This document shows, in pieces, positions 34,485 to 58,377 of a DNA stretch of 64,000 nucleotides; position 1 is the stretch's first letter; every line of letters starts with the position of its first letter. Source of the DNA: Candidatus Iainarchaeum sp. (GTDB lineage Archaea > B1Sed10-29 > WALL01 > JAGHAM01); assembly GCA_021161465.1 (NCBI GenBank), contig JAGHAM010000003.1, positions 2,631-66,630 of the forward strand. Direction: 5' to 3'. Made by a program: the position numbers and the translations under genes. Below the pieces are notes generated by a model. It was not told where the DNA came from. It searched no databases and was given only the letters and a program-made list of their open reading frames with translations.

Positions 34485-34547
34485 CCTTCCTATGGTTGGG
34501 CATAGGAACTTTTTTAAATAACCTTATCTTATCATTATTTGATTGTT

Positions 34548-36596
34548 ATGGGATATTTGGATGGTCTTCTCCACAGGGCTAAAAAACCTTCACCCGATGA
34601 AAAAGGGGTACCAGCACCAGAAGTTGAACCATCACCGCAGCCATTACCAGAACCAACAGCTGCTGCACCTAAAGTCCCTCCGCCTGTTAGCCAGCCACCA
34701 AAACCCCCAAGACTGGCTAAGCCACAAGCCCTATCACCTATAGGCCCACCACCAAAACCTGCACCAGAGGCCCCCATAGCTCCTCCCACAGTTAAGCTTA
34801 ACGTTGAGAAGGTCGTCCCACCAAAACCAAAAGGCCAACCAGTGCTCTCAGAGAAACCAGCAGGGTTTATAGAGAAAATTGAGGTGCCAAAGGCTGAGGA
34901 GAAGACATTGCCAGCTAAGCAACCCTTACCCCCTGCTAACAAGCCACCAGTGAAGGAGCAAGAGGCAAGGCTTAAAGAATTACCTGAGCCAAAAGCAGCG
35001 CCTGTGCCAGCTCTGGAGAAAGAGCCACCTACACTAGTTCAGAAGGAAGCAGCACCACCCAAACAGCCTGTTGCTACAAAGAAACGAAGAGCGCCAACCC
35101 CGCCACCAAGCTTTAAGCCCGAGGATGTTCCAGAGGAAATAAAACGTGGGATGAAGGGGGACCTGCCCTCCGGCAGAAAACTGCTCGCGGCCTATGGGGT
35201 TTGTGAGATATATGAGCTGCCAGGCCACAAGAGATTATATGCTATTCCAGTTCCAAAGCCACATGGTCCGGAAAGGGAGATAATAAACACTGTAAAGGAA
35301 GCAGCGACTAGGCTCATAACCATATCCCCTGATGAGATAAAGGACCCTGAGAAGCGGTGGTCATTTTTCAAGAAAAGAGTTCTTGAGATTATGGAGTCTT
35401 CACCAGAGCTAGGTATCCCAGCGGCAAAGCTTGATTTCTATGCCGAGACGGTTGTCAGGGAGATGATAGGGTACGGCGCGTTGGATTTGTTGCTCCAAGA
35501 CGACAAGCTTGAAGATATAATGGTTAATGGTCCAGACAAGCCCGCATATGTTTTCCATAGGGATTTTGAGATGCTCCCGACAAACTTAATCTTTGGCAAG
35601 GATGAGGAGATACAAGGGGTAATTGATAGGATTGCCAGAGATGTTGGGAGGAGGATTGACATTAGGGAGCCATTGCTTGATGCAAGGTTGCCAGATGGGT
35701 CCAGAGTGAATGCAACGATACCGCCCATCTCGCTTGCAGGCTCTACAATAACTATAAGGAAGTTTAGGCAGGATCCCTTTACTGTTGTGGATTTGGTGAA
35801 GATGGGAACAATAAGCACAGAGTTGGCAGCATTCTTATGGGTTGCCGTTGAAGGGGCGTCCGCGAAGCCAGCCAACATACTTGTGGCAGGTGGGACAGCT
35901 TCAGGTAAGACCACAACACTGAACGTGTTGGCATCGTTTATACCAAGGAACGAAAGGATAATAACTATCGAGGACACTGCTGAAATACAGTTACCGATGG
36001 AGCATTGGGTCAGGTTTGAAACCAGGCCCCCAGGCATAGAAGGCCAGGGCGAGATAAACATGGATACCCTTTTGAAAAATTCCCTGAGAATGCGTCCAGA
36101 TAGGGTTGTAGTTGGAGAAGTTAGGGGTGGTGAAGCTTTCTCGCTTTTCACAGCCATGAATACAGGACACGATGGTTCCATGGGTACAGTCCACGCAAAC
36201 AATGCACAGGAAACTGTTGTTAGGCTGAAGAGCCCACCAATGAACGTTCCTGAAACGATGCTTTCAGCCCTTGACATAATAATAATACAAAAAAGGATAC
36301 ACGACAGAAGAAAGGGCGTGATAAGGAGAGTTTCCGAAGTTGCCGAATTGTCTGGCGTTCTGGAAGGTGAACCCAAGTTCAATTATCTCTTTGAATGGGA
36401 TGCCGCTACAGATACCATAAAGGCCTCTTATGACACAAGTCAATACTTACATGAGTTAAGCAGATTCACAGGCATGTCACATACCGCCCTGCGGCAGGAG
36501 ATAAGCAGGAGAGAGGAGTTTATAAAGGACATGATAAGGAGAAACGTACGGGGCATAGGTGCTGTCTGTGATGAGGTACATAACCTAGTGGAATAA
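34548..36596 (+). CDS. Type IV pilus assembly ATPase (CpaF/VirB11 family) with Pro-rich N-terminus
   Basis: GGTASGKTT, TIEDTAE, LRMRPDRVVVGEVRG, MNTGHDG..TVHAN. Confidence 0.93.
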   Translation: MGYLDGLLHRAKKPSPDEKGVPAPEVEPSPQPLPEPTAAAPKVPPPVSQPPKPPRLAKPQALSPIGPPPKPAPEAPIAPPTVKLNVEKVVPPKPKGQPVLSEKPAGFIEKIEVPKAEEKTLPAKQPLPPANKPPVKEQEARLKELPEPKAAPVPALEKEPPTLVQKEAAPPKQPVATKKRRAPTPPPSFKPEDVPEEIKRGMKGDLPSGRKLLAAYGVCEIYELPGHKRLYAIPVPKPHGPEREIINTVKEAATRLITISPDEIKDPEKRWSFFKKRVLEIMESSPELGIPAAKLDFYAETVVREMIGYGALDLLLQDDKLEDIMVNGPDKPAYVFHRDFEMLPTNLIFGKDEEIQGVIDRIARDVGRRIDIREPLLDARLPDGSRVNATIPPISLAGSTITIRKFRQDPFTVVDLVKMGTISTELAAFLWVAVEGASAKPANILVAGGTASGKTTTLNVLASFIPRNERIITIEDTAEIQLPMEHWVRFETRPPGIEGQGEINMDTLLKNSLRMRPDRVVVGEVRGGEAFSLFTAMNTGHDGSMGTVHANNAQETVVRLKSPPMNVPETMLSALDIIIIQKRIHDRRKGVIRRVSEVAELSGVLEGEPKFNYLFEWDAATDTIKASYDTSQYLHELSRFTGMSHTALRQEISRREEFIKDMIRRNVRGIGAVCDEVHNLVE

Positions 36597-36607
36597 TGTG
36601 AGTTAAA

Positions 36608-37834
36608 ATGGTCACGGATGATGAGAAGAAAGATAAGAAGCTTATAAAGCTAATAGCTGGTGAGAAGAAGACAGAGCCAAAAGGAATAAGGAGGATAGGA
36701 ACATCATCTGGGATAACTCCAACCTACAAAGAAACCAGTGTTGAAGATATAGTCAGTAGAATGGAGAAGAAGTACAAAGAAAGAGGGATACTCGAAGAAG
36801 GCGGAGTGGAACTAACCAAGGGAGAAGAGCTTAAAGAAATGGTAGTTGGTGTAACCCCTCTCCAACTTGATAGGAGAACCCCAGATTTGCTGGTCCACGA
36901 GAGTTCGCCGTTTTTAAGATTTGTTGGTTCTCTCTACTCGACTATCAAGCCACTCAATTCTCTCAATAATGACATATTGACTATGAGCATTTCTGAGTCT
37001 TTGCCTGTAGACCTGAATAAAGCTAACATACCCTATAGCAGCAAGCAATTTGCTTCAGTAGCTCTAGTGGTCACTATAATTGCAACTGTCTTCATGTTTT
37101 TTCTGACCACCATACTCTCACTTACTCTGTTATCCCCTATCATAGACATTTCAATTGGGGCTCTGCCACAGCCAGTTCCCATCCTGCTTAAGATAACGCT
37201 CTCTGGTCTTTTCTCGTTTGTATCTGGCGCGATGGTGCTAGTCATAGCGCTTAAATACCCGGTCATAGTTGCTGGCAAAAGAAAAACAGATATAGAACGC
37301 ATATTACCTTTCGCTTTGAGGCAGATGGCAACTGAGATAAAATCAGGGATTGGGATACACGGCAGCCTTAAGTCAATAGTGCGATCTAACTATGGGGCAT
37401 TATCAGAAGAGTTCGAAAGGGTGTTGAAGGACATAGAGAAGGGGAAGTCAACTGAGGATGCTCTTGATGAACTGGTTCTCCGTTCTCCCTCAGAGAGTTT
37501 GGCCACAGCGGGTATACACATGATTAGAGCCATAAGGACTGGGGGTAACTTATCTGATGTTATATATGCCATAGCTGATGAAGTTGCATTTAGGCTTAGG
37601 ATGAAGATGCAGGAGTTTGTGAGCAAACTAAACCTAGTGAGTTTAATCTATATGATGGTTGGGGTTATCTTCCCTGTGCTAGTTGCTGTCCTGGCCTCGG
37701 TTTTCACAGCAGTTCCCACTCTTGGCCTTGGGTCAGCAATTGGGCCTGAAATGCTGTTCATGTTATATTTTGTACTTATACCAGCAGTGCTTGGTGTCAT
37801 ACTTTATTTCATAAAAGCTTTCCAGCCGATGTGA
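36608..37834 (+). CDS. Pilus platform protein (TadB/TadC, T2SSF domain)
   Basis: LPFALRQMA..IKSG, YGALSEEF, TGGNLSD. Confidence 0.88.
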   Translation: MVTDDEKKDKKLIKLIAGEKKTEPKGIRRIGTSSGITPTYKETSVEDIVSRMEKKYKERGILEEGGVELTKGEELKEMVVGVTPLQLDRRTPDLLVHESSPFLRFVGSLYSTIKPLNSLNNDILTMSISESLPVDLNKANIPYSSKQFASVALVVTIIATVFMFFLTTILSLTLLSPIIDISIGALPQPVPILLKITLSGLFSFVSGAMVLVIALKYPVIVAGKRKTDIERILPFALRQMATEIKSGIGIHGSLKSIVRSNYGALSEEFERVLKDIEKGKSTEDALDELVLRSPSESLATAGIHMIRAIRTGGNLSDVIYAIADEVAFRLRMKMQEFVSKLNLVSLIYMMVGVIFPVLVAVLASVFTAVPTLGLGSAIGPEMLFMLYFVLIPAVLGVILYFIKAFQPM

Positions 37835-37838
37835 TAAG

Positions 37839-38699
37839 ATGGAGTTATATAACTCATATGTGCGTTCCGTGAAGTTTGCGTTGGGCGATGTAGAGCCCGA
37901 CTACTTGCTACTCGGCGCGCTTTTTGCATCGTCTTTAGCGCTGACCTACATTGGTGTTTTCGTTGATATGATATTCGGTGGTTTGATAGCTGTATTTTGC
38001 TTGGATTTGGCAGTCGGTTATCCCTTGTACAAACGTTCCAAAAGGATTGCACAGATGGAGAGGGCATTACCAGATGTAATGACCAGCATGGCAGCTACGC
38101 TTCAGGCAGGGGGTACCATAGAGAGCTCGCTTAAGGATGCAAGCCGTGGCAGATACGGGCCAATAAGCGAGGAGTTAAGGCGGATGTTGAGGGAAGTCAA
38201 GCGTGGGAAAACTTTTGAGGCGGCTTTCTCAGACTTTGCCAGGAGAACGGAGTCGGTGAACATTCAGAGGAGTGTGGATGTCATAATCTCCGCTAAGAGA
38301 ACTGGTGGTGGCCTGGTGCAGGCCTTGAGGAGCATCGCTGACGACCTGAAAAACAACCAGAGGCTCATTGAGGAGAGGAAATCTATAACCCTGCTCCAGA
38401 TAATCTTCATAATTGTAGCTGCTGATATCATTGGACCAGCGATTCTTGGCTTGGTTTCCGGGATTACTGTGTTTTTAGCTAGTATTGGAGGAAATGAATC
38501 TAATCCTGTCTTGGGAACAGTTGTGTTCTACCTTAAGGGATATATAGTAGTTTCAGCAATTTTCTCAGCTCTTGCAGCAGCTGTCATAAGAGAGGGAGAT
38601 GTGACTAAGTCGGTTTTATATTTACCAATACTGTTAACGTTAGCATACACAATTTATGTGGGAGTTGGTATAGTTGCAAAAATGTGGTTTGGCTTCTGA
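37839..38699 (+). CDS. Second pilus platform protein (TadB/TadC)
   Basis: LPDVMTSMA..LQAG, YGPISEEL, TGGGL..AL..IADD. Confidence 0.88.
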   Translation: MELYNSYVRSVKFALGDVEPDYLLLGALFASSLALTYIGVFVDMIFGGLIAVFCLDLAVGYPLYKRSKRIAQMERALPDVMTSMAATLQAGGTIESSLKDASRGRYGPISEELRRMLREVKRGKTFEAAFSDFARRTESVNIQRSVDVIISAKRTGGGLVQALRSIADDLKNNQRLIEERKSITLLQIIFIIVAADIIGPAILGLVSGITVFLASIGGNESNPVLGTVVFYLKGYIVVSAIFSALAAAVIREGDVTKSVLYLPILLTLAYTIYVGVGIVAKMWFGF

Positions 38700-38856
38700 G
38701 GAGAAAGCGCAGGTGTCAATAGAATACCTGGTAATAATAGGTGCAGCGATAACACTGGTGGTCCTAATCAGTCTTTTGATTAAGAACTCTTTCCTAAGGA
38801 ACTGGTTGCATCTCGGTGGGGAGAACGTTAACAGAACATTGGGTAACACCACTTAG
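38689..38856 (+). CDS. Small class III signal peptide pilin-like protein
   Basis: KA/QVSIEYL followed by a hydrophobic helix. Confidence 0.75.
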   Translation: MASEEKAQVSIEYLVIIGAAITLVVLISLLIKNSFLRNWLHLGGENVNRTLGNTT

Positions 38857-39136
38857 ACAGGTATTCATGTGCACTCTGCTGTATCCACCAATTAATCCTC
38901 TAGAGTTGGTTTAGGGGCGTATTCCTAGAGTGTGTTCTCTGCTGTGCAGTCCACTAGTAAGTTCCCACTAGCTGGAACTCTTGTAGAAGGGGGCTCCATC
39001 AGTCCTGCTATGCGGTCCAATAGTAGGTTCCCACCTAAAACAGTGATTTGAGAACCGAGATGGCATTCTGTATATCTTAGATTACTGGCACTCAGTAAAG
39101 TTTATAAATCAGAACCACATATTTTAAAGTGGATAT

Positions 39137-39668
39137 CTGGAGGCGTCAAATATGTTTAAATTAAAGGGCCAAAGAGGTCAGGGTTCCATTGAGTACTTAA
39201 TGATTTTAGCTGCAGTGCTTGCCATTGCAGTAGTGGTAGTTGTGCTTGCTACTACCTTCTTCACAAGATACCAGGAGCCTGCGCAGGTTTCGAGCGACAA
39301 AAGTGTTTGTGGTGCCGCTCAGATACAGTTGATGAACTACTTCCAAAGATATGAAAACGCAACAGATGCAGGGGACAAGCTGAAGATAAAGTATCTGGGC
39401 AAGGTTGCAAATTGTTCGTATGTAGCTGACACTAGCAGCTTGGGTATGACTGCATCTACCTCATGTAAGATAGGGACAACTAAGAATACACAAATAGTTG
39501 TCTTTGCTGGTATGGATGGTGGAGATGCAGTTTGTAAGGTAGCAGATGTACCTTAGGGTTGCATTGGTGGTGTCATACCGAGAGTGAAAGGTCAGGTTCC
39601 TGGAGGCGTCAAATATGTTTAAATTAAAAGGCCAAAGAGGTCAGGGTTCCATTGAGTACTTAATGATT
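39137..39668 (+). repeat. 69-bp direct repeat (39137-39205 and 39600-39668) covering SD and pilin signal peptide
   Basis: ctggaggcgtcaaatatgtttaaattaaa(g/a)ggccaaagaggtcagggttccattgagtacttaatgatt, one mismatch. Confidence 0.9.
39152..39556 (+). CDS. Probable major pilin 1 (class III signal peptide)
   Basis: RG/QGSIEYLMIL; GGAGG SD; TTTATAAA promoter near 39101. Confidence 0.85.
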   Translation: MFKLKGQRGQGSIEYLMILAAVLAIAVVVVVLATTFFTRYQEPAQVSSDKSVCGAAQIQLMNYFQRYENATDAGDKLKIKYLGKVANCSYVADTSSLGMTASTSCKIGTTKNTQIVVFAGMDGGDAVCKVADVP

Positions 39669-39986
39669 CTTGCAGCAGTGGTAGCTATAGCAGCTGTGGT
39701 GATTGCTATCATGATGGGGATTCTTGATACAAAAGGGCCAGTCATCAAGAGCCAGAAGGCAAGGTGTAGCACTAATGGAATAGAGTTGCCAAACTATAAT
39801 GATTTTCCCCAAAATGCAACAGATGCGGCGAATGCTCTTTTGGTGAATTATGGTGGCAATCAGATGACATGTGATACTACTAGTGAGCATTTAGATAGCT
39901 TAAAGGCATCATGCGAGATAGGGAATCCAGACAAGCCTTTGATAACACTTGAGGTTAATGCCACGAACTGTAGATTCCTTGAGTAA
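39615..39986 (+). CDS. Probable major pilin 2 (class III signal peptide)
   Basis: N-terminus identical to pilin 1; divergent Cys-containing globular domain. Confidence 0.85.
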   Translation: MFKLKGQRGQGSIEYLMILAAVVAIAAVVIAIMMGILDTKGPVIKSQKARCSTNGIELPNYNDFPQNATDAANALLVNYGGNQMTCDTTSEHLDSLKASCEIGNPDKPLITLEVNATNCRFLE

Positions 39987-40215
39987 CCCTATGAGTATTG
40001 AAGCCCTTCGGGCTGATGATAGTAGATTGGTAGGTTGAACTCCCACCAAGAGAAGCGAGTTTCTTGATCATAATAGAAAATAACTGAGCCTTAGGTTGTT
40101 GCTATTAACTCATCTGGCTAGTAACGTTGACACCTAGGGTGCTATGGTAACCTATATTATACTGGCAGCTCCACCAGGGTAAACTATTTTATACCTCTTA
40201 CCCGTAAGTTAGAAC

Positions 40216-40416
40216 ATGCCTTCAATGTTGGAGTTAGTTTCGGAGGAGAAATCTCAGTCATCTCTGGAATACTTATACTTAACAGCGTTTGCTGTTGGCA
40301 TAGTGGCGGTTGTTGCAATACTTCTGAACGATATACTATCAATCCAGGAAAGGGCAAAGAACAAGGTCATTGCATATAAGGAAGACGTCTTTCGAATGAT
40401 AAATGTAACCGGCTAG
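40216..40416 (+). CDS. Small class III signal peptide pilin-like protein
   Basis: KS/QSSLEYL followed by a hydrophobic helix. Confidence 0.75.
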   Translation: MPSMLELVSEEKSQSSLEYLYLTAFAVGIVAVVAILLNDILSIQERAKNKVIAYKEDVFRMINVTG

Positions 40417-40422
40417 ATTTAA

Positions 40423-41478
40423 ATGAACATCTTTTTTATGGTTAGTGCGACTATTACAGTTGCTGGTTTATTGATTGCTAGTTATACAGACTTAAAGGAG
40501 CGATTAGTTTCTAACAAATTGAATTATTCCTTACTGCTGGCCGGCCTGCTTTTGTATGGAGTTGAATCCATGTATACTGGTTCTATACTGCCATTTGCCT
40601 ATTCACTTGGTGGTGCAACTATAGCGTTTGTCTTCTCTTTGTTCCTTTACAAAGTTGGGGCCTGGGCTGGCGGTGATGTTAAATTATTCACCGCTTTAGG
40701 GGCGTTGCTGCCCATGGCGCCAGAGCACCTCATAGGTTCCAGAGTGCCAAGCTTCTATGCTAGCTACCCTTTATTCCCTTTTTTGATAGTTGAGGACAGT
40801 GTTTTAATTGCATTCCCTTTCATAATGGCATACATCTTCTGGAAAACTTTTAGGAAGAGGGCACTTAGGGATGATTTCAAGAAGATGGGTATAGGAGTTG
40901 TTGTAAAATCTCTTGTGCTGTCCGCGAACGCCTATGGTATCTTGGCTCTGTTGCCTCTCGCTGGTCTCCCCACCTGTTCATAAGTATTGTTCTTAATCCT
41001 CCTGGCTTTCCTGCCGAGGCAATTGTGGTATCCATCAGCAGTGATTTTGTTTGCTACTGGCTTGTTGTGTGGAAGCAACTTAACCGTGTTTATATCTCTT
41101 CTGGTTACTAGTATTTTTGGTTTCGGGTTCTTTGAAGCTATAACCCATGGGAGAAAGGCACTTCAGAAAAGGGTCCCCACAGGTAAGCTTAAGGAAGGCA
41201 TGATTTCAGCTGAGTTGGTTTTTGTTGAGAACGGAAAACTAAAAAGGCTTTCTCGCTCATGGTTAGAGAGAATTCACCTTTTTGAGCCGCCGGGAACGAT
41301 TGTGTCTGACCTAAGCGCAGCTGGATTAACGCCCGAGCAAATAAAAAAGCTTAAGGAGCTTAATGTCAAGAGTTTGTTAATCAAAGAATCAGTTCCGATG
41401 ATACCAATACTTTTATTAGGATGTATTACATCATTAGTTCTTGGTGATTTGGTTTGGCTAATTATGGGCTTGTTGTGA
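40423..41478 (+). pseudogene. EppA/FlaK-type A24 prepilin peptidase interrupted by an in-frame TAA at 40981-40983
   Basis: SYTDLKER and GGDVKL catalytic Asp motifs in part 1; LKEGMI...GL..EQI.KL..VPMIP C-terminal part in the same frame. Confidence 0.7.
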
Positions 41479-41939
41479 ACGCAAAGGGCCAGATAACCAT
41501 AGAATATATACTTATAATAGTCATTGCTCTTGCGATTCTTGGCTCGGTTACATTCCCTGCAGTGAATGATATGACAGATGCCGCTAAGGATACTTCTATG
41601 GCGGTTTTGCTCGCCTCAGCTCAGCAGAGGATAATAAACACAGCAGAGGAAGTTTCAATGGCAAGTTGCGGCTCGTTCAAGAACATATACATCTACATAC
41701 CCCCGAAGTACATACAAGCGCCGAATGTCTTATGGGATAAAGATTATGTATGGGGCAATTTCGCAAATTCAAGCGGAGATGTAAATTCCATAGGCAAGCT
41801 TGGTTTCCCGGATTACATAAAAATAACTGGGAGTTGTCCCTCTGCTGTGAACAACACCTTTAAGGTTACAATAACCAAGGACTGCACTAACTCGCGGCCG
41901 ACGGCCTCTGGTGGGGTAGGGGTTGATGTTTGTACATGA
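41475..41939 (+). CDS. Minor pilin (class III signal peptide)
   Basis: KG/QITIEYIL; GTGA overlap with upstream stop. Confidence 0.8.
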   Translation: MNAKGQITIEYILIIVIALAILGSVTFPAVNDMTDAAKDTSMAVLLASAQQRIINTAEEVSMASCGSFKNIYIYIPPKYIQAPNVLWDKDYVWGNFANSSGDVNSIGKLGFPDYIKITGSCPSAVNNTFKVTITKDCTNSRPTASGGVGVDVCT

Positions 41940-42334
41940 GAAAGGGGCAAATTTCAGCTGAATATATACTCATCGCAATAATGATTTTAGGAAGCTCTTT
42001 TATTGCGTTTAAATACTTCCAGGCAGAGGGGTTCAATTTAGTTACAGATTCATTGTTGAAGACGAGTGTTGACTGGGAGCTTGCCAGCTCGGCTTTAGAG
42101 CACCCAAAGTGTGACATATTCCTTGGTGGTATATACGCTAATAGGACCAAATACACAAGCACGTTCCAGGTACAGGCGAGTAACTCAACGGGGGCAGACC
42201 CGTATTGCACCAGTGTGGTGCTAAGCCGCTCTGTGAGGAACAGGATACAAGGCTTGATTTCTTCAGCTCTTGGCTGTGACCCCTCTACAAATGGCTCATG
42301 TAAGGGCCATATATACACTATTGGCACCAGATAG
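41936..42334 (+). CDS. Minor pilin (class III signal peptide)
   Basis: MRKG/QISAEYIL. Confidence 0.8.
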   Translation: MRKGQISAEYILIAIMILGSSFIAFKYFQAEGFNLVTDSLLKTSVDWELASSALEHPKCDIFLGGIYANRTKYTSTFQVQASNSTGADPYCTSVVLSRSVRNRIQGLISSALGCDPSTNGSCKGHIYTIGTR

Positions 42335-42373
42335 CTGTTAGTTTAATATTCTTAAATTTCCACAAGGAAACTT

Positions 42374-42940
42374 ATGGGGTTTAATTTTTTCAGGGATAGG
42401 ATAAAAGAGCAAGGTGGGAGTGAAGCTGAATATATAATTCTAAGAACACAGCTGGCGACCCTAACCCTATTCATATTTGCGATTTTCACAGTATTCTCCC
42501 AGTCGTACATCCTACTCTCCGCTGTGGTCTTGCTGTTCTTGCTTAACGTTTACTCGGTTATCAAACAGCTGAAGACTAGGGACAAGCGTGCCTATGAGTA
42601 CTTCTTCATCGGCTTGAATGTTTTGGGTGTTTTACTGGCAGCGTTCAACTTTGTCTTTCCGGGATTTCATCCCATATATGCTTTAGCTTATCTCGGAATT
42701 TTTTTCATATTCCTGATAGTCTTTCATGTGTTTTTCAAAAGGAACTTCACGTATGGGGAAGTTTTGGTTTCTGATGGCGAGTGGGCGGTTGTTAAGGCGC
42801 ATTATGATTTGTGCTCCGGAGTGAAAAATGGCTTTTATGCTGTCAGGAGCAAGAAAGGTATAAAAAAGGGAAAAGAGGTAAAAATAAGCGTTAAAGGATT
42901 CTTAGGGGAGAGGAGAATGCCTTGGAAGGTAATAGGGTAG
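42374..42940 (+). CDS. DUF2101-like membrane protein
   Basis: Four TM segments, then RNFTYGEV...YDL.SGVK.G.Y. Confidence 0.65.
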   Translation: MGFNFFRDRIKEQGGSEAEYIILRTQLATLTLFIFAIFTVFSQSYILLSAVVLLFLLNVYSVIKQLKTRDKRAYEYFFIGLNVLGVLLAAFNFVFPGFHPIYALAYLGIFFIFLIVFHVFFKRNFTYGEVLVSDGEWAVVKAHYDLCSGVKNGFYAVRSKKGIKKGKEVKISVKGFLGERRMPWKVIG

Positions 42941-43254
42941 TATTTTGGGTATGTCTAATAGTTTCAGTTCTAGGTGTAGTCTTAGCTAGCTTAGGGGTTC
43001 CTAGAGAGGTGACTGCACTATCACCAGAGCTCGTTGGCCAGGATGTTGTTCTTATAGGAACCATAAACACTATTCGCATGCACAATGGCAATGCTTTTCT
43101 TTCAGTTAATGGATTCAGAGTGGTTATCTTCAGCAAGGATGCCCATAGGCTTGGTGTAACAAGTTTGACCACCGGAACCAGAGTGGCCCTCCTAGGTTCT
43201 GTTAGGGAATATCATGGCGAGATAGAGCTGGTTGTGAGGGATTTAGTTGATTGA
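42922..43254 (+). CDS. Membrane-anchored OB-fold nucleic-acid-binding protein
   Basis: N-terminal TM; VVLIGTI, FRVVIF, G.RV...GSVREYHGEIELVV (RPA-like OB pattern). Confidence 0.75.
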   Translation: MEGNRVVFWVCLIVSVLGVVLASLGVPREVTALSPELVGQDVVLIGTINTIRMHNGNAFLSVNGFRVVIFSKDAHRLGVTSLTTGTRVALLGSVREYHGEIELVVRDLVD

Positions 43255-44362
43255 GCTGGTTATTGCTATCTTGGCAGGTGTTTTGTGTGGTGTTTTGACT
43301 GGTTTGGTTCCAGGACTGCACATAAACACGTTCATACCCTTCCTCTTTTTGCTGAGGGGTAGCTGGCTGACTGGCTTCGTGCTTGGGGTTGTGGTATCTC
43401 ATTCGCTGTTTGACTTCTTCCCAGCGATTTTTCTTGGTGTGCCCGAGGAGTCTACGGCATTATCCATACTCCCAGCGCATAAGATGGTTCTAAGGGGGAA
43501 GGCTCTAAAAGCGTTCCAACTTTCTTTGTTTGGTGGGCTGTTTTCTTCACTCTTCGCGGTTGCTTCGGTGCCTTTTTTAATTCCTTTAAGCAAGCTCGAC
43601 TTGAGAATCCCTGTGCTGGCAGTACTGGTGGCCACCATTCTTTTTATGCTCCTGTCATCCAGCAGGAAGATTCTCACCGCGGCAATCTTTGTTCTTGCTG
43701 GTATACTCGGCCTAAATACCCTTGGTGAACCCAACTCATTCTTAGCGCTGTTCTCTGGCTTTTTTGGGGCAAGTACAATTATAAATTCCCTTATGTCAAA
43801 TCCAGAAGTTCCAAAGCAGAAGTTAGTTGAGGCTAGGGTGCCTGCGTTCAAGCCAGTCTTCCTTGGTAGCCTTGCAGGGCTATTTTCAGGACTTACTCCA
43901 GGGATAAGTTCTTCAATATCAGGACTGGCTGTTAAGAAGCTTGGAAAGGTTAGTGATGAAGACTTTCTGGTGGTGTTGGGTGGCGCCAATACAGTTTATG
44001 CTTTCATGGCGATAGCTGCTATCTTTATCATAGGTAGGCCAAGAAGTGGTGCAGGGCTCCTGCTGGGTGATAGTGCTGGCATGTTCATGCTTGTTGGGGG
44101 GTTCCTCCTTGCTCTTGGCTTGGCTTCGTTCCTTGCGTGGAAGCTTGCTCCAATGGTTGTATTGGTTTTCAACACGCTGCCAACAAAGGGATTGAACATA
44201 GTAGCACTTGGCTTTCTGGTCGCGCTTACCCTCTGGTTTGGGGTTTTTCCCTTATTCATTGTGAGCACTTCTCTCGGGCTAGTTTGCTTGCTCTCTGGTG
44301 TTAGAAGGAATACATGCATGGCAAGTATTTTATTACCGGCGGTTCTATACTACCTTCCGTGA
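43247..44362 (+). CDS. TctA-like (DUF112) polytopic membrane permease
   Basis: TGLVPGLHIN, FPAIFLGVPE..TALSILPAH.M...G, PGISSS, RPRSG. Confidence 0.85.
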   Translation: MIELVIAILAGVLCGVLTGLVPGLHINTFIPFLFLLRGSWLTGFVLGVVVSHSLFDFFPAIFLGVPEESTALSILPAHKMVLRGKALKAFQLSLFGGLFSSLFAVASVPFLIPLSKLDLRIPVLAVLVATILFMLLSSSRKILTAAIFVLAGILGLNTLGEPNSFLALFSGFFGASTIINSLMSNPEVPKQKLVEARVPAFKPVFLGSLAGLFSGLTPGISSSISGLAVKKLGKVSDEDFLVVLGGANTVYAFMAIAAIFIIGRPRSGAGLLLGDSAGMFMLVGGFLLALGLASFLAWKLAPMVVLVFNTLPTKGLNIVALGFLVALTLWFGVFPLFIVSTSLGLVCLLSGVRRNTCMASILLPAVLYYLP

Positions 44363-44366
44363 GTTT

Positions 44367-44714
44367 ATGAAGATAAAAGAAGACACCTTGGATTTCATAC
44401 TGGAGGCTTGCCGGAATACCTATCCAAACGAGTTCTTAGGTCTCCTCAGGGCAAAAGGAGGCACCATAACTGAGGTTTTGCTGATTCCAGGGAGCAAGTT
44501 TGAGCACACAAGCTCAACTTTAAGGAGGGATATGGTTCCATTGGACCCAACTATAGTCGGTTCAGTTCACTCGCACCCTGGCAGGCCGATACCCTCCAAA
44601 GCAGACCTTAACTTCTTCTCTAAGTTTGGGAAAATACATCTAATTGTGGGTTATCCTTTCACAAGGGATACCATTGCTGTGTTCGGCCCTGAACGGTTGG
44701 AAATAGTTAAATAG
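44367..44714 (+). CDS. JAB/MPN (JAMM) domain metalloprotein
   Basis: YPNEF...GSVHSHP...PSKADL: intact E-HxH-S-D motif. Confidence 0.9.
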   Translation: MKIKEDTLDFILEACRNTYPNEFLGLLRAKGGTITEVLLIPGSKFEHTSSTLRRDMVPLDPTIVGSVHSHPGRPIPSKADLNFFSKFGKIHLIVGYPFTRDTIAVFGPERLEIVK

Positions 44715-44736
44715 AACAATAGGTTAATAGTGATTA

Positions 44737-45240
44737 ATGGAAAAGGCAATGTTGTCTCTGGACCTGTTAGTTAGCCTAATTGGTTTAGTTATGGTTGGAG
44801 GGGCATTGGCTTCTCTTGGCTTCATCCAGGCGGAGAGCGCGGTCTCGAATTCATTGCAGTTCAAGGCAGAGTCCATGGCAATGGCAGTAGGTTCTGCTAT
44901 AAATAATTTTGATGCCATAAACCCAGAAACAGGCTCAAACTTGACACTTAACCTATCCGACCCTGAGCCAATTTCAAGCAATACCTTGTCTTCGGGCTGG
45001 CCGCCAGTCGGCAGGGTCAGCTTTGACTCCTGTAAGGTCAGCTTCGAATCCTCTGGTTCAGCACGGTTTGTCGTAGTGAATATCAGTTTTTACAGGTGGG
45101 ATTCCAACATGGAAGAGTCCGTGGTTGGAAAATATCCAATTGTGAATACAGTTCAGGTTATTGGTGGGACAAATCCAATGAACTGCAATGGGACCATATT
45201 TGTTAATAAAGATATGAACGTGAGGTTGTATGACTATTAA
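44737..45240 (+). CDS. Pilin-like protein
   Basis: MEKA/MLSLDLL followed by a hydrophobic helix. Confidence 0.65.
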   Translation: MEKAMLSLDLLVSLIGLVMVGGALASLGFIQAESAVSNSLQFKAESMAMAVGSAINNFDAINPETGSNLTLNLSDPEPISSNTLSSGWPPVGRVSFDSCKVSFESSGSARFVVVNISFYRWDSNMEESVVGKYPIVNTVQVIGGTNPMNCNGTIFVNKDMNVRLYDY

Positions 45241-45589
45241 AGTTTGCAAAACAAATGAGAGGGCACAAGTCATCTCAACAGATTTGCTGGTGTCTTTGAT
45301 AGTTGTTACGTTGGCTATGGGTTTGAGTGTACAGGCACTCGGGGAGCATTACAGGCAGGCCGCGTCCACATTTGAGGGTGCGAAGATGCACCAGATAGCC
45401 TTGGATGCAGCGGCAATAAACTATTACAAGGGCATGGATGGTGAGGCAGCCGGTTACGATGGCTTGGATGTTTCAGCTGAGAAACTGGGCTACACCTTAG
45501 CTGACCATCAGGCCCCCTTATCAAGTTCATGTGTTGTTAGTTCACGTGGAACAGGTGCCCACCCCACTGTGGTTTACGTTTGCAGGTGA
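45230..45589 (+). CDS. Pilin-like protein
   Basis: RA/QVISTDLL followed by a hydrophobic helix. Confidence 0.65.
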   Translation: MTIKVCKTNERAQVISTDLLVSLIVVTLAMGLSVQALGEHYRQAASTFEGAKMHQIALDAAAINYYKGMDGEAAGYDGLDVSAEKLGYTLADHQAPLSSSCVVSSRGTGAHPTVVYVCR

Positions 45590-45593
45590 TGAT

Positions 45594-45893
45594 TTGAGGA
45601 AAGGAATTTTCTTTTCAATGGAGGCTACCTACCTGTTGATTGCTACGTTCGTGGTAGTTGAGGCCATGATTATGTTCCTCCCAAATGTAAACCAGCCAAA
45701 CTATGACATGATTTCAGCTCTTAAGGTGGCACATGACATGGGGCAGAACAACACTTCTTCACCACCGGAAATATCACCAGCTCTCAAAAGCAACTACGAT
45801 TTTGGTGTTGCATGTGGAAACAGAAACGACACCATCAAGATTGCGTACTATGATTATGGGGCTGCAACAGACGAGAGGGTGTGCACAAAATGA
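45594..45893 (+). CDS. Pilin-like protein
   Basis: RKG/IFFSMEA followed by a hydrophobic helix; GGTGA SD before TTG. Confidence 0.65.
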   Translation: MRKGIFFSMEATYLLIATFVVVEAMIMFLPNVNQPNYDMISALKVAHDMGQNNTSSPPEISPALKSNYDFGVACGNRNDTIKIAYYDYGAATDERVCTK

Positions 45894-47137
45894 GGAAAGG
45901 GTTTATAATATCGTCAGCAGTGATGGTCTTTGTATTTGCAGTGATGGTAGCCCTTTTCATGTTTGTCCTGAGCGAGAATGAACTTCATAATACAGCCATG
46001 ACTGGTCTTGCAGTTGAGAAAACCCGTTGGATATCCGATGCTGATGATTATTTTTGTAAGAAAGATATTACCGATACTTCAGATTGGGATGTCAATGATT
46101 ACAACTCCTTTTCAGATAAGGGCCCGACAGAGTATCTAAACGTATTTAAAGATGCCTATTCTAGAAATGGAAACAAATCTCACTTCGTTCCTTTCGCCAC
46201 GTCAGGTTCCCTATCTTTTGACTTTTTTGAACCTTATGGTGGATTTCAAGTCAATTATGTCCATGACAACCCTCCCCATATAGCTCTCGTAGACCCTAAA
46301 CCAGGTGACGTTATTGAGATATCTGCAACCAGCCATCCCGATGGATTATATGATTTCAACTACGATGTATGCGATGCAGAGTCACCAATTTCAGATTTGA
46401 GGTTTTGGATTTATTATCGCCCCAACTCTGGAGGAAGTTGGACGCCTGTAGTAGACGAGTCTGGCAATAGGATAGCTAACGTCCCATGGACCAACTCACA
46501 GTCTTTCAAAGTTAACTTGAGTGAAACTCCCGGAGTTACAGGCGATAGGTGGTGTTTCAAAATAGTTGTTCAGGACCCCTATGGATTGAACAACACAGAG
46601 AATGCAACTAGCTGTTATGTGAATGTTTCTACTAGTGGTTGCAAGAGCGCTGCTGATTGCGATGATGGCAACGAATGCACAACAGATACCTGCAATACTG
46701 CTGATGGAACATGTTCACATTCACCAGAACTTGACAATACTCCATGTAGTGGAGGTATATGTTGTAGTGGAAGCTGCACCACACCCACATGCTACAGCAA
46801 CTCTGAGTGCGATTCTGGCAATCCAGACACTTACTGCTATCAATCAGTGTGCAATAATGCTGGTAAGTGTAATGCAGACTGTTCATATTCCCCAATAAAT
46901 CGTTGTGGTGACGGAGTCAAAAACTGTGGAGAAGCATGTGATCCTAATGCCAGCCCAACAGGTTGTCTTTTAGGGACTTGCACACCTGACTGTACCTGTA
47001 TTGACCCTTGTGAAGGAGCCACATGCTCATGGGGACTACCTTACAAGTGTACTAGATGCCCAGATGGTTCTATTGAGGGTTGGTGCTGTCATAGTGCCTC
47101 AGGAGTAGAGACTTGTAGCTTCAACGCTTGCCATTAA
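45890..47137 (+). CDS. Large pilin-like adhesin with Cys-rich C-terminal repeats
   Basis: MRKG/FIISS N-terminus; CDDGNECTTDTC and CGDGVKNCGEACD motifs. Confidence 0.75.
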   Translation: MRKGFIISSAVMVFVFAVMVALFMFVLSENELHNTAMTGLAVEKTRWISDADDYFCKKDITDTSDWDVNDYNSFSDKGPTEYLNVFKDAYSRNGNKSHFVPFATSGSLSFDFFEPYGGFQVNYVHDNPPHIALVDPKPGDVIEISATSHPDGLYDFNYDVCDAESPISDLRFWIYYRPNSGGSWTPVVDESGNRIANVPWTNSQSFKVNLSETPGVTGDRWCFKIVVQDPYGLNNTENATSCYVNVSTSGCKSAADCDDGNECTTDTCNTADGTCSHSPELDNTPCSGGICCSGSCTTPTCYSNSECDSGNPDTYCYQSVCNNAGKCNADCSYSPINRCGDGVKNCGEACDPNASPTGCLLGTCTPDCTCIDPCEGATCSWGLPYKCTRCPDGSIEGWCCHSASGVETCSFNACH

Positions 47138-48008
47138 TGTGCGTCTTAAAATGTTTTTCTTTCTCGGATTTCTTCATGAGCAGTGCAGTTTTGTTTAGAT
47201 TACGCCGACTGATTGTCATTACTTTTCTTATTACTTTATCAACTCCAGAACCATATTGCGCGGCTTTTTTGGGTCTCCAGGCAACTTCCTTGGGAACGCC
47301 CAGCTCCAGAGCGATTTCTCTTAAAACAAGTTTCTTAACAGGTGGCTCCAGTTTTATCTTCCTCTCAGCGGGGATTCCAAGCGAAACGGCAATAACTTTC
47401 TCATCAAGGAATGGCACGCGAAGGCCTTTGTTGAACGCCTTGGCCACCGCCGTGTCGCGGGTGATGTCCCTTTCCCACATACTCTTCAAGCCTTTGACTA
47501 TCTCTTCTTCAACGGTTCTGTATCCTCCTTGCCTTAGCGCGTTCTCATGCCTATGGTAGCCAGCGAATAACTCTTCCGTCCCCAATCCAGAGAAAAATAC
47601 CTTTTCCTTAGCCTCGCGCATGCAGAAGTAAAATGGTGTCGCAACACCAACTTTCATAATATTTGGACCAACAAGTTTGACGATTTTGGGAAGCTCCTGC
47701 TCAAGCTCTTCTTTTGTTATTATTATGGTTTTTAGGTTTAGACCAAGTTCCTTTGCAACACGCTTGGACCACTCTAAATCCTGACTACCTTGAATTCCAG
47801 CACAGTAGCAGTGCAGGTTAAGGCGGTCGCGTAGCAGCACTGCCAGCAGCGTGGAATCAACCCCGCCAGAGAAAAGCAGGCCGGCTTCTTTAAGGCCTTT
47901 ACAGTTTTTGTCGATGGATGCGACTATTGATTTTTTAAGTTCTCCCTTCCCTCCTTTAGCTGGCTTTGGTGGGTTATCCAGCAAGTAGTGCAACTCTTCA
48001 GCTATCAT
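47121..48008 (-). CDS. Asparagine synthase C-terminal (ATP pyrophosphatase) domain protein
   Basis: LFSGGVDS, SGLGTEELFAGY, RVPFLD, RPKKAAQYGSG; no glutaminase domain. Confidence 0.85.
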   Translation of the reverse strand: MIAEELHYLLDNPPKPAKGGKGELKKSIVASIDKNCKGLKEAGLLFSGGVDSTLLAVLLRDRLNLHCYCAGIQGSQDLEWSKRVAKELGLNLKTIIITKEELEQELPKIVKLVGPNIMKVGVATPFYFCMREAKEKVFFSGLGTEELFAGYHRHENALRQGGYRTVEEEIVKGLKSMWERDITRDTAVAKAFNKGLRVPFLDEKVIAVSLGIPAERKIKLEPPVKKLVLREIALELGVPKEVAWRPKKAAQYGSGVDKVIRKVMTISRRNLNKTALLMKKSEKEKHFKTHINGKR

Positions 48009-50837: not shown

Positions 50838-50926
50838 GAAGACATCACAAAATCCTTAGGTTTTAACCTTAGAGTTAGTAACTTATTTAAATAAATGGAC
50901 GTTATTAAGTGTTATGGGTGCTAAAC

Positions 50927-54848: not shown

Positions 54849-55466
54849 TTAACTCTTGCCAAGGATTTTCGCCCTGCCATCATCAAGCTTTATCCTTCCG
54901 TCTGCGAACCAGTTGATTGCTTTTAGGATTATCTCCTGCTCAGCTGCTTGCACCTTAGGTTTGAGAGTTTCAACGGTTTCATCTTCACTGATTGGAACGC
55001 ATTTTTGGGCGATTATTGGCCCAGAGTCGACTTCTTCCGTTACAAAATGAAGTGTGCAGCCAGTGACTTTGCAGCCGAAGTCAAGCACGGCCTGGTGCAC
55101 ATCCTTATCCATGGCTCCACCAAAGGCAGGCAACAGGCTTGGGTGGATATTCATGGCTTTCCCATACCACTTTTTCACGAACCAGCCCGATATTATCTTC
55201 ATGTAGCCAATGAGTAGCACCAGCTCAACACCATGCTTCTCAAGCTCTGCATCCACCTCCCGGTCAAACTCTTCGCGCGTCTTTCCCTTTGGATTTATGA
55301 AGACTGACAGTATACCCTGCTTACTGGCACGCTCCAGTATATACGCGTTTTCTTTGTTGCTTATCACCACAGCTACTTCGGCGTCCAGTTTTTTGTTCTT
55401 TGTGGCATCTATTATGGCTTGCAGGTCTGTGCCGCTGGTTGAGCCAAGCACCCCCAGTTTAATCAT
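54849..55466 (-). CDS. purN: Phosphoribosylglycinamide formyltransferase
   Basis: SGTDLQAI, NIHPSLLPAF, GCTLHFV..EVDSGPII. Confidence 0.95.
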   Translation of the reverse strand: MIKLGVLGSTSGTDLQAIIDATKNKKLDAEVAVVISNKENAYILERASKQGILSVFINPKGKTREEFDREVDAELEKHGVELVLLIGYMKIISGWFVKKWYGKAMNIHPSLLPAFGGAMDKDVHQAVLDFGCKVTGCTLHFVTEEVDSGPIIAQKCVPISEDETVETLKPKVQAAEQEIILKAINWFADGRIKLDDGRAKILGKS

Positions 55467-57566: not shown

Positions 57567-57662
57567 CCAGTTACCCCCATATTTTTTAAGAATGAGATTG
57601 TTTAAAACGGTTTCTAAGGCCTAGGCAAAACTTTAATATTCATATAAGCCCTAACTAAAAGC

Positions 57663-58328: not shown

Positions 58329-58377
58329 TTATTTAACCCATAGATTATAAATTAATAAGATTCTCTAGGTAATATTT

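What the first reader, a model, noticed from the sequence alone, without database searches (positions are those of the whole stretch)
42374..44714. OB-fold + TctA-like channel + JAB module inside a type IV pilus operon: candidate archaeal DNA-uptake machine
Seen: DUF2101-like, TM-anchored OB-fold, TctA/DUF112-like and JAB genes overlap or nearly abut, and sit between two groups of pilin genes within the 34548-47137 locus. No TctB/TctC partners and no ComEC-like gene are present in the window. Established: bacterial ComEC combines an OB fold with a membrane channel; RadC, a JAB protein, is competence-induced in several bacteria; type IV pili are needed for natural transformation in Methanococcus. 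From memory and unverified, a membrane transporter was also implicated there. Inference: the OB and TctA-like proteins form a non-homologous ComEC analogue importing pilus-captured DNA.
Basis: partly seen in the sequence, partly recalled or inferred. Interest (0 to 1): 0.75.

Follow-up and report, generated by a model that had tools for sequence, protein, structure and literature searches.

The report
Pilus operon carrying archaeal DNA-uptake genes
A tiny DPANN archaeon has built the gene pair that methanogens need to take up DNA, a membrane-anchored OB-fold protein and a short TctA-like permease, together with a small zinc protease, into a type IV pilus operon; this ties pilus and candidate DNA importer together, but the pair and the idea are already published.

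Summary
They lie inside a complete Epd-like (clade 1) type IV pilus operon, 34539-47137.

The central idea is already in print. Fonseca et al. 2023 showed that an adjacent OB-fold (one helix) and TctA-like (11 helices) pair is essential for natural transformation in Methanococcus maripaludis, and they proposed the TctA-like protein as the DNA transporter.

What this locus adds:
- In this DPANN phylum, TctA-like lies among pilin-like genes in 20 of 20 fetched loci.
- JAMM follows TctA-like in 18 of 20; the other two stop at contig ends.
- OB precedes TctA-like in 17 of 20.
- A controlled complex prediction docks the OB protein's membrane helix on TctA-like helix 279-310 (score 0.69, best control 0.00). 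By charge counts the OB domain faces outward.
- The genome assembly (93% complete) shows no TctB, TctC, ComEC or E1 enzyme.

Two corrections. DUF2101 belongs to the pilus, not to TctA: it sits in pilus loci far from TctA in a Thermococcus and a Hadarchaeota genome. The JAB protein is AfJAMM-like, not RadC.

Whether TctA-like is a DNA conduit remains unproven. I rate this a new variant of a known kind, of moderate interest.

The parts
34539..36596 (+). Type IV pilus assembly ATPase (T2SSE/FlaI-TadA family) with a long Pro/Lys-rich N-terminal extension
   Evidence: PF00437 E 3.4e-50; NCBIfam FlaI/TadA-type matches, all below their equivalog cut-offs; conserved at the head of the operon in relatives
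36608..38699 (+). Two TadC/FlaJ-like platform genes (36608-37834 and 37839-38699), the two-gene layout of clade 1/system 1 pili
   Evidence: PF00482 E 4.8e-23 and 2.6e-19; Makarova 2016 and the 2026 T4F paper describe two platform genes for clade 1/system 1
38674..40416 (+). Four small pilin genes (38674-38856, 39152-39556, 39615-39986, 40216-40416)
   Evidence: PF04021 class III signal peptide E 1.2e-4, 1.2e-6 and 3.6e-6 for the first three; the fourth has a QSSLEYL-type N-terminus
40423..41478 (+). Prepilin peptidase (A24) in two ORFs split by an in-frame TAA at 40981-40983: catalytic part 40423-40983, archaeal C-terminal domain 40987-41478
   Evidence: PF01478 E 1.1e-16 and PF06819 E 7.5e-9; both ORFs are in one frame; relatives have a single ORF of about 330 aa
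41454..42334 (+). Two pilin genes (41454-41939, 41930-42334)
   Evidence: PF04021 E 1e-4 and 2.9e-4
42374..42940 (+). DUF2101 membrane protein: four helices plus a basic five-strand beta domain predicted to be cytoplasmic; a pilus-operon accessory
   Evidence: PF09874 E 7.4e-21; AF2 model pLDDT 89.3; Lys+Arg 11-19 in loops 1/3/5 against 0-1 in loops 2/4; weak OB-like fold matches; sits in pilus loci away from TctA in Thermococcus and Hadarchaeota
42922..43254 (+). Single-helix membrane-anchored OB-fold protein (110 aa); OB domain predicted outside the cell
   Evidence: PF01336 in 7 of 20 orthologues, best E 1.2e-7; one hydrophobic helix at residues 6-24; predicted to dock on TctA-like; orientation inferred
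43247..44362 (+). Short TctA-like (DUF112) permease, 371 aa, about 11 membrane crossings plus hairpins
   Evidence: PF01970 E 7e-30 over model positions 2-419 of 423; AF2 model pLDDT 92.2; invariant H25, N27, R266 and R354 in 19 sequences, H78 in 90% or more
44367..44714 (+). AfJAMM-type JAMM/MPN+ zinc peptidase, cytoplasmic, with an intact active-site motif
   Evidence: PDB 1r5x/1oi0 AfJAMM E 3e-18; E22, H68, S69, H70, S77 and D80 invariant in 19 sequences; follows TctA-like in 18 of 20 loci
44737..47137 (+). Four pilin-like genes (44737-45240, 45230-45589, 45531-45893, 45881-47137); the last is 418 aa with a Cys-rich C-terminal half
   Evidence: No Pfam hit; [KR][GA]-plus-hydrophobic N-termini; homologues in the same order in related loci

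Best explanation
The locus is an Epd-like (clade 1) type IV pilus operon of a DPANN archaeon from a lineage whose public records are named Iainarchaeum, Diapherotrites or Micrarchaeota. It has absorbed the archaeal 'transformation pair': a membrane-anchored OB-fold protein and a short TctA-like permease that lacks TctB and TctC. A cytoplasmic AfJAMM-type zinc peptidase gene follows them. Proposed mechanism, with the status of each step. The pilus captures extracellular DNA (inferred from Methanococcus genetics). The OB domain sits on the outer face, held by an N-terminal helix that packs against TctA-like helix 279-310 (predicted here). The OB/TctA-like complex carries out the membrane step of uptake (genetically required in Methanococcus; how it works is unknown). 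The JAMM peptidase acts on the cytoplasmic side on an unknown substrate (inferred from gene coupling only). DUF2101 belongs to the pilus machinery, not to the transporter.
For: [quoted passage not shown] The TctA-like homologue of M. thermophilus is also essential. Pili are required in both species (PMC10133366).

Same families and layout here: PF01970 and PF01336, one helix in the OB protein, about 11 crossings in TctA-like, and the OB gene directly upstream with an 8-nt overlap. ESM Atlas nearest clusters are archaeal proteins, commonest phylum Methanobacteriota: OB proteins of 115-121 aa and TctA proteins of 389-402 aa, both scoring 0.96 (leads only).

No TctB, TctC or ComEC in the 93%-complete assembly.

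Linkage in the phylum: PF01970 matched in 27 of 31 genomes, plus one divergent copy found later. Of 20 fetched loci, 20 have pilin-like genes beside TctA-like, 14 also have pilus core genes, 18 have JAMM next to TctA-like (the other 2 are contig ends), and 17 have OB.

Looser linkage outside DPANN: in Makarova 2016 Supplementary file 1, the TTT-class arCOG04469 gene lies two genes from the clade 1 pilus ATPase and TadC in Methanobacterium AL-21 and Methanothermobacter marburgensis, the 2 genomes I read.

Complex prediction for TctA-like with OB: score 0.69, best of 3 controls 0.00. That mark was reached by 116 of 157 solved complexes and 2 of 215 mismatched pairs. The runs agree in at least 97% of contacts and the partner's pLDDT is at least 79. 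My own alignments were used, so these counts hold only roughly. No solved relative of TctA-like was found by sequence, so the pass is unlikely to come from memory of a known complex.

Topology: Lys+Arg counts per loop over 19 sequences place TctA-like residues 279-284 outside and 298-310 inside. The OB helix runs antiparallel to that helix, which puts the OB domain outside. Twelve of the 20 aligned OB domains carry two cysteines, conserved in the second gene layout, which would fit an extracellular disulfide.
Against: No experiment exists for this organism or for any DPANN archaeon.

I could not obtain the Methanococcus sequences, so orthology rests on family, size, architecture and gene order.

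Fonseca 2023 contains no piliation test of the OB or TctA-like mutants (no match for 'piliat' or 'electron microscop'). Their transformation defect could therefore be indirect.

The TctA-like model is confident, but it looks like a secondary transporter with hairpins. Its best match is the OPT-family YS1 transporter (Z 10.7, rmsd 5.2, 253 aligned residues). Elevator-type carriers follow at Z 5-6. All of these are in the range that is inconclusive for helical proteins. None is a polymer channel.

The window's own OB ectodomain is acidic (pI 5.9). Seven of 20 orthologues are acidic and 13 basic.

The OB protein is dispensable in part of the phylum. One genus (3 genomes, 84-89% complete) keeps TctA-like and JAMM among pilins but has no OB or DUF2101.

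The OB-TctA-JAMM trio stands away from pilus core genes in some members: L054 has no pilin at all, and L013 has a single pilin-like gene next to OB but no core genes. L033 likewise showed only the trio in the 12.3 kb fetched.

JAMM is not next to TctA-like in 7 of 19 loci found with JAMM, from Thermococci, Hadarchaeota, Altiarchaeota and one unnamed archaeon.
Confidence: 0.6

Rival explanations
1. Pilus biogenesis or anchoring accessory. OB, TctA-like and JAMM would be structural or maturation factors of the Epd-like pilus, for example a membrane scaffold, export of a pilin modification, or proteolytic maturation. In that case the loss of transformation in Methanococcus mutants follows from loss of pili, not from loss of a DNA conduit.
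For: The genes lie between pilin genes and are translationally coupled. This is conserved in 20 of 20 loci. DUF2101, directly upstream here, is a pilus-locus gene elsewhere. Fonseca 2023 reports no piliation test of these mutants. A pilin directly replaces OB upstream of TctA-like in one genus.
Against: In M. maripaludis the pair lies far from both epd pilus loci (locus tags). In a Hadarchaeota genome OB and TctA-like lie on a different contig from the pilus locus. The OB domain is of the nucleic-acid-binding Pfam type. The trio also occurs without neighbouring pilus genes.
Confidence: 0.2
2. Small-solute secondary transporter co-expressed with pili. TctA-like would import an anionic small molecule, such as a carboxylate, a nucleotide or a short oligonucleotide released by a surface nuclease. 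The OB protein would stand in for the missing TctB or TctC as an accessory or substrate-binding subunit.
For: The protein is a PF01970 member. Weak fold resemblance, Z 5-6, to elevator-type carriers (TRAP, DASS, AbgT, ArsB) and Z 10.7 to an OPT transporter. Invariant Arg and His residues in the membrane would suit an anionic substrate. The genome encodes one SNase-type thermonuclease, and a thermonuclease was also a hit in the Methanococcus screen.
Against: No TctB or TctC. Transformation needs long DNA to enter the cell, which this model does not explain. The window itself carries purine-synthesis genes (PurF, PurD, PurN) and two ribonucleotide reductases, so nucleotide scavenging is not obviously essential for this organism.
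Confidence: 0.12
3. JAMM-centred protein-processing module. The conserved unit would be a membrane-tethered deconjugating or processing protease (JAMM), with TctA-like and OB as its membrane platform, unrelated to DNA.
For: JAMM follows TctA-like in every locus that could be assessed: 18 of 20, plus L054. Its active-site residues are invariant.
Against: No E1 (ThiF) enzyme in the assembly, so there is no SAMP-type conjugation to reverse (93% complete). JAMM is unlinked to TctA-like in Thermococci, Hadarchaeota and Altiarchaeota. No JAMM gene appears among the hits of the Methanococcus screen.
Confidence: 0.05

Closest known systems
M. maripaludis JJ MMJJ_13020 (OB-fold, one helix) + MMJJ_13030 (TctA-like, 11 helices); M. 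thermophilus SAMN04488571_104187 (Fonseca et al. 2023, PMC10133366)
   Same: Same two Pfam families, same small sizes and architectures, same gene order and adjacency. No TctB or TctC. Functionally tied to a type IV-like pilus.
   Different: In Methanococcus the pair lies far from the pilus loci and no JAMM partner is reported. Here the pair is inside the pilus operon and is followed by a JAMM gene. I could not compare the sequences directly.
Bacterial ComEC
   Same: The idea is the same: an outward-facing OB fold joined to a polytopic membrane protein downstream of a DNA-capturing type IV pilus.
   Different: No homology: there is no PF03772 competence domain and no metallo-beta-lactamase domain. 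The OB fold is a separate polypeptide. The DUF4131 similarity is weak (E 5.8e-3, 2 of 20 members).
Bacterial TctABC tripartite tricarboxylate transporter
   Same: TctA-like matches PF01970 over nearly the whole model.
   Different: 371 aa and about 11 crossings, where bacterial TctA is said to have up to 12 helices. No TctB or TctC in the genome. The partner is an OB-fold protein.
AfJAMM / AF2198 of Archaeoglobus fulgidus (PDB 1r5x, 1oi0)
   Same: Full-length similarity, E 3e-18, with an intact E...HxH...S..D motif.
   Different: Here it is strictly coupled to a TctA-like gene. The assembly shows no E1, so a desampylase role is unlikely.
Clade 1 / system 1 (Epd-like) archaeal type IV pili (Makarova 2016, PMC4858521; T4F paper 2026, PMC13705601)
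   Same: CpaF/TadA-like ATPase, two TadC genes, a dedicated A24 peptidase, many pilins, an extra 4-helix membrane protein (DUF2101, probably their arCOG07604; my inference from size, helix number and position), and a PP-loop ATPase gene at the end.
   Different: OB, TctA-like and JAMM lie inside the operon. The locus is compact and ordered, whereas the 2026 paper states that ordered loci are rare in DPANN.

Membership tests
Archaeal transformation pair (MMJJ_13020/MMJJ_13030 type) | Short TctA-family permease (PF01970) with about 11 membrane helices | tested here: met
   PF01970 E 7e-30; 371 aa; helices from the AF2 model and loop charge parity give 11 crossings plus hairpins
Archaeal transformation pair (MMJJ_13020/MMJJ_13030 type) | Adjacent upstream gene for an OB-fold protein with a single membrane helix | tested here: met
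   8-nt overlap; one helix; PF01336 in 7 of 20 orthologues, but the window's own score of 19.5 bits is below the 27-bit cut-off
Archaeal transformation pair (MMJJ_13020/MMJJ_13030 type) | No TctB or TctC partner | tested here: met
   0 matches in the assembly, which is 93% complete
Archaeal transformation pair (MMJJ_13020/MMJJ_13030 type) | Direct sequence orthology to the Methanococcus proteins | not testable with these tools
   No tool returned those sequences.
Archaeal transformation pair (MMJJ_13020/MMJJ_13030 type) | Required for natural transformation | not testable with these tools
   Needs genetics
TctABC tricarboxylate transporter | TctA together with the small membrane subunit TctB and the binding protein TctC | tested here: not met
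   PF07331 and PF03401 absent. The control genomes E. coli, C. glutamicum and H. volcanii gave matches for both families.
ComEC | Competence domain PF03772 | tested here: not met
   No match in the locus or in the genome
ComEC | N-terminal OB fold of the DUF4131 type | tested here: inconclusive
   E 5.8e-3, 16.8 bits against a cut-off of 31.6; 2 of 20 members
JAMM/MPN+ metallopeptidase, AfJAMM type | E...HxH...S..D zinc site and full-length similarity to AfJAMM | tested here: met
   E 3e-18 to 1r5x/1oi0; motif residues invariant in 19 sequences
RadC | RadC-type JAB domain | tested here: not met
   Only PF14464 Prok-JAB matched at E up to 0.1
Clade 1 / Epd-like type IV pilus | Secretion ATPase, two TadC-like genes, A24 peptidase and class III signal pilins in one locus | tested here: met
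   Clade assignment of the ATPase by phylogeny was not done.

The most novel reading that the evidence does not exclude
OB, TctA-like and JAMM together form the long-sought archaeal DNA translocon, physically coupled to an Epd-like pilus. In this reading an outward OB domain docked on TctA-like helix 279-310 hands pilus-captured DNA to a TctA-derived conduit. The strictly coupled cytoplasmic JAMM enzyme is a third component that has not been recognised before. The basic cytoplasmic OB-like domain of the pilus protein DUF2101 receives the incoming strand.
Probability: 0.3. Interest if true: 0.85.

Novelty: new variant of a known kind. Interest (0 to 1): 0.55.

Why it matters
How DNA crosses the archaeal membrane is unknown, because archaea lack ComEC. 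The only genetic candidates are the OB and TctA-like pair of Methanococcus.

Finding that pair fused into a pilus operon across a DPANN phylum is independent genomic evidence that pilus and pair work together. It also gives specific, testable leads:
- a predicted OB/TctA-like interface;
- an outward-facing OB domain;
- a strictly coupled JAMM peptidase, a family whose substrate is unknown.

It hints as well that host-dependent DPANN archaea may take up DNA much as competent Saccharibacteria do (PMC10633639; I saw only the search listing and the start of the abstract).

Tried and rejected
Reaching Methanococcus sequences. The search for related loci did not accept the TctA alignments A1 and A2 or the JAMM alignment A3, reporting no sufficiently conserved stretch. 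With alignment A2 the list was swamped by a Chloroflexota clade of mostly 436-449 aa.

Fused forms. The 'longer' search (770-2195 aa) found nothing. The tool itself calls this weak evidence.

Fold of TctA-like. Foldseek against the PDB gave no match at E <= 1e-3. VIA-align gave YS1 (Z 10.7, rmsd 5.2, 253 aligned) and elevator carriers at Z 5-6, inconclusive for a helical protein. No solved relative was found by sequence.

Fold of DUF2101. VIA-align returned only generic helical bundles for residues 5-123. Foldseek gave weak OB-like matches for the C-terminal domain, E 8e-3 to 4e-2. The beta domain was not folded alone.

OB profile against PDB sequences. Only non-significant hits to nucleic-acid-binding OB folds, E >= 0.028.

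Desampylase role for JAMM. Set aside because no ThiF/E1 was found (assembly 93% complete).

Obligate nucleotide scavenging. Weakened by the purine-synthesis and ribonucleotide reductase genes in the window.

JAMM neighbours outside DPANN. They looked like unrelated housekeeping genes judged from ORF starts only. They were not scanned against Pfam.

Expression. No RNA holder was listed.

Positive-inside counts for the OB protein alone were not decisive.

Literature. No paper holds DUF2101 + archaea. None holds type IV pili + archaea + TctA + JAB. Only the Fonseca paper and its preprint hold TctA-like + transformation + archaea. The two papers holding DPANN + TctA do not bear on this: in the one I opened the term was a primer string, and the other I saw only in the listing. 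The supplements of PMC13705601 were not opened and may list accessory arCOGs that bear on the claim that this is not in print.
Full report
OBSERVATION. On the + strand, 34539-47137 is one tightly packed gene row. Pfam and NCBIfam give, in order:
- a T2SSE secretion ATPase (34539-36596, PF00437 E 3.4e-50);
- two T2SSF platform genes (36608-37834 and 37839-38699);
- four small pilins, three of them matching the class III signal peptide family PF04021;
- an A24 prepilin peptidase (40423-40983) with its archaeal C-terminal domain in a second ORF (40987-41478);
- two more pilins (41454-42334);
- the four genes of the finding: DUF2101 (42374-42940, E 7.4e-21), a 110-aa protein with one hydrophobic helix and an OB fold (42922-43254; PF01336 E 9.8e-4, DUF4131 E 5.8e-3), a 371-aa TctA-family protein (43247-44362, E 7e-30) and a Prok-JAB protein (ORF 44298-44714, E 1.1e-9);
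- four ORFs without Pfam hits (44737-47137) whose N-termini have the [KR][GA]-plus-hydrophobic look of prepilins.

DUF2101 and OB overlap by 19 nt, and OB and TctA by 8 nt. Alignment with orthologues and with AfJAMM moves the JAB start to ATG 44367, 4 nt after the TctA stop.

ORGANISM. The window is contig C29 of a 976-kb, 40-contig assembly that is 93% complete. Named relatives of its proteins and loci are called Candidatus Diapherotrites, Iainarchaeum or Micrarchaeota, so it is a DPANN archaeon. Public runs holding the stretch are labelled hydrothermal vent metagenome (coded X1-X3, one study).

CONSERVATION WITHIN THE PHYLUM. PF01970 matches 27 of 31 genomes of the phylum, mostly once per genome. 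A divergent copy that Pfam missed turned up later in G018. I fetched 20 loci around these genes. I searched them with HMMs that I built iteratively from the window's own proteins. The pilin HMMs mostly recognise the shared N-terminus, so the labels among pilin families are loose.

Results for the 20 loci:
- Pilin-like genes beside TctA-like: 20 of 20.
- Pilus core genes (ATPase, T2SSF or A24) in the same stretch: 14 of 20. Three of the other six are cut by contig ends.
- JAMM directly after TctA-like: 18 of 20. The other two end inside or just after TctA-like.
- OB directly before TctA-like: 17 of 20.
- DUF2101 present: 10 of 20.

Two layouts occur. One is the window's: pilins, DUF2101, OB, TctA, JAMM, then four pilin-like genes. 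The other is pilins, optionally DUF2101, three pilin-like genes, a gap of about 500 nt, then OB, TctA, JAMM.

There are exceptions:
- One genus (3 genomes, 84-89% complete) lacks OB and DUF2101. A true pilin precedes TctA-like there.
- G018 has OB, TctA and JAMM with no pilus genes within about 8 kb.
- L013 has only one pilin-like gene next to OB and no core genes.
- L033 showed only the trio in the 12.3 kb fetched.

The stable unit in this phylum is therefore OB-TctA-JAMM, usually but not always inside a pilus operon.

OUTSIDE THE PHYLUM. A genome scan with a 3-sequence JAMM alignment returned 19 loci. JAMM lies next to TctA-like in 12 of them. In the other 7 (two Thermococci, one Hadarchaeota, three Altiarchaeota, one unnamed) JAMM has other neighbours. 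In five of these genomes that I searched, TctA-like sits elsewhere. In the Hadarchaeota genome an OB-fold gene (my HMM, E 4e-21) overlaps the start of TctA-like.

DUF2101 (PF09874) in a Thermococcus genome and in the Hadarchaeota genome lies on other contigs than TctA-like. In the first it ends an operon of pilin-like genes. In the second it sits inside a full pilus locus with ATPase, two T2SSF genes, pilins and A24. DUF2101 is therefore a pilus gene.

[quoted passage not shown] That DUF2101 is this arCOG is my inference.

The same file shows the TTT-class arCOG04469 gene two genes from the clade 1 pilus ATPase and TadC in Methanobacterium AL-21 and in Methanothermobacter marburgensis. These are the 2 genomes I read, out of 11 rows holding 'tricarboxylate'. 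The main text does not mention this.

LITERATURE. Fonseca et al. 2023 (PMC10133366; passages and section 9 read) found transposon hits in MMJJ_13020 (OB fold, one helix) and MMJJ_13030 (TctA-like, 11 helices). In-frame deletions of either gene abolish natural transformation and are complemented. Deleting the TctA-like homologue of M. thermophilus does the same. The authors suggest that the TctA-like protein is the DNA transporter. They note that archaea lack TctB, TctC and ComEC, and that no clear OB homologue was found in M. thermophilus. The text holds no piliation test of these mutants.

Neither Makarova 2016 (main text) nor the 2026 T4F paper (PMC13705601; passages read) mentions TctA, JAB or an OB fold. 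The 2026 paper states that ordered T4F loci are rare in DPANN. My searches found no paper linking TctA-like with DPANN or with pilus operons.

Earlier agents of this scan reported the same module in other DPANN genomes. I treat those reports as leads that my own calls reproduce here.

STRUCTURE AND TOPOLOGY. The TctA-like AF2 model is confident (pLDDT 92.2, pTM 0.89). It has no solved relative by sequence and no clear fold match.

Lys+Arg counts per loop over 19 orthologues are high for loops 136-142, 184-201, 309-314 and 349-355, and near zero for loops 157-164 and 329-335. This gives the N-terminus inside, about 11 crossings with hairpins whose tips carry the conserved PGLHxN and TPG motifs, and the C-terminus outside.

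The complex prediction of TctA-like with OB scored 0.69 (three runs: 0.67, 0.70, 0.69) against 0.00 for the best of 3 controls. That mark was reached by 116 of 157 solved complexes and 2 of 215 mismatched pairs. The runs agree in at least 97% of contacts and the partner's pLDDT is at least 79. My own alignments were used, so the counts hold only roughly. The model supports binding but does not show it.

The interface is the OB protein's helix (residues 3-26) lying antiparallel on TctA-like residues 278-298. Combined with the loop charges, this places the OB N-terminus inside and the OB domain outside. This step is an inference.

DUF2101 (pLDDT 89.3) has four helices with both ends inside. Its five-strand C-terminal domain is basic (pI 9.3-10.7 in 12 of 12) and has weak OB-like matches.

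The OB ectodomain is basic in 13 of 20 orthologues but acidic in the window's own protein (pI 5.9).

JAMM. The protein aligns over its full length with AfJAMM/AF2198 (E 3e-18). It keeps E22, H68, S69, H70, S77 and D80 in all 19 sequences. The assembly has no ThiF-type E1, so removal of SAMP-type modifiers is unlikely. Its substrate is unknown.

GENOME CONTEXT. The assembly has no TctB, TctC or ComEC. It has one SNase-type nuclease and six T2SSE ATPase matches.

MECHANISM AND RIVALS. The best reading is a pilus-coupled DNA-uptake module of the Methanococcus kind (confidence 0.6). Shown here: gene content, conservation, and the absence of TctB, TctC and ComEC. Predicted: the OB/TctA-like contact and the outward-facing OB domain. 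Inferred from published genetics: the role in DNA uptake. Unknown: whether TctA-like is itself the conduit, and what JAMM does.

Rivals are a pilus biogenesis accessory (0.2), a small-solute transporter co-expressed with pili (0.12) and a JAMM-centred processing module (0.05).

NOVELTY. The pair and the hypothesis are published. The operon fusion with the pilus, the strict JAMM coupling in DPANN, the predicted interface and the reassignment of DUF2101 are additions. I rate this a new variant of a known kind, with interest 0.55.

LIMITS. I made no direct comparison with the Methanococcus sequences. The HMMs are home-made. Kin genomes are not independent samples. The supplements of PMC13705601 were not opened.

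Noticed in passing
window 40981-40983: An in-frame TAA splits the A24 prepilin peptidase into a catalytic ORF (40423-40983) and an Arc_PepC ORF (40987-41478). Six relatives have one ORF, with L, W or E at that position. Logan contigs of two runs break exactly at 40981/40984, which hints at strain variation or an assembly problem at that codon.
   Followed up: partly
window 19573-21663, 26960-28924, 54849-61134: Two ribonucleotide reductases (a Ribonuc_red_lgC type and an NrdD type) plus PurN, FolD, SHMT, PurF and PurD. This DPANN genome keeps at least part of purine synthesis.
   Followed up: no
window 45881-47137: A 418-aa pilin-like protein with a Cys-rich C-terminal half and no Pfam match, possibly a tip adhesin. 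Shorter homologues (about 180-270 aa) end the operon in related loci.
   Followed up: no
window 47121-48008 (-): An Asn-synthase-like PP-loop ATPase gene converges on the operon end and is conserved there in 6 related loci. Makarova 2016 notes a PP-loop ATPase (arCOG00035) in clade 1 pilus loci, and a PP-loop gene also lies 1.8 kb from OB-TctA in the Hadarchaeota locus L046.
   Followed up: partly
G000 and relatives G010, G012, G018: There are many pilus-like systems per small genome: six T2SSE ATPase matches in G000, and 9-10 T2SSF matches, mostly in adjacent pairs, in relatives of 0.6-0.9 Mb. This contrasts with the published statement that ordered T4F loci are rare in DPANN.
   Followed up: partly
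P0040, P0049 and about 100 more proteins: A large Chloroflexota/Anaerolineae clade of TctA-like proteins, mostly 436-449 aa, is closer to the archaeal short form (25-29% identity) than I expected. Their gene context was not examined.
   Followed up: no
L054 9555-10643 (G018): A divergent TctA-like protein with the hairpin motif changed from PGLHxN to IHPNN escapes PF01970 in the genome search but is found by the phylum HMM (E 5e-58). Pfam-based counts therefore understate the family.
   Followed up: partly
window 13932-17977 (-), 50909-52816 (+), 61211-63880 (-): Large ORFs of 955, 374 and 636 aa with no Pfam match at E 1e-5, and an 889-aa DUF3160 protein.
   Followed up: no
Makarova 2016 Supplementary file 1, Methanopyrus kandleri rows: A JAMM gene (arCOG01139) overlaps a clade 1 pilus-associated membrane protein gene (arCOG07604). 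This is a second hint of a JAMM-pilus link outside DPANN.
   Followed up: no
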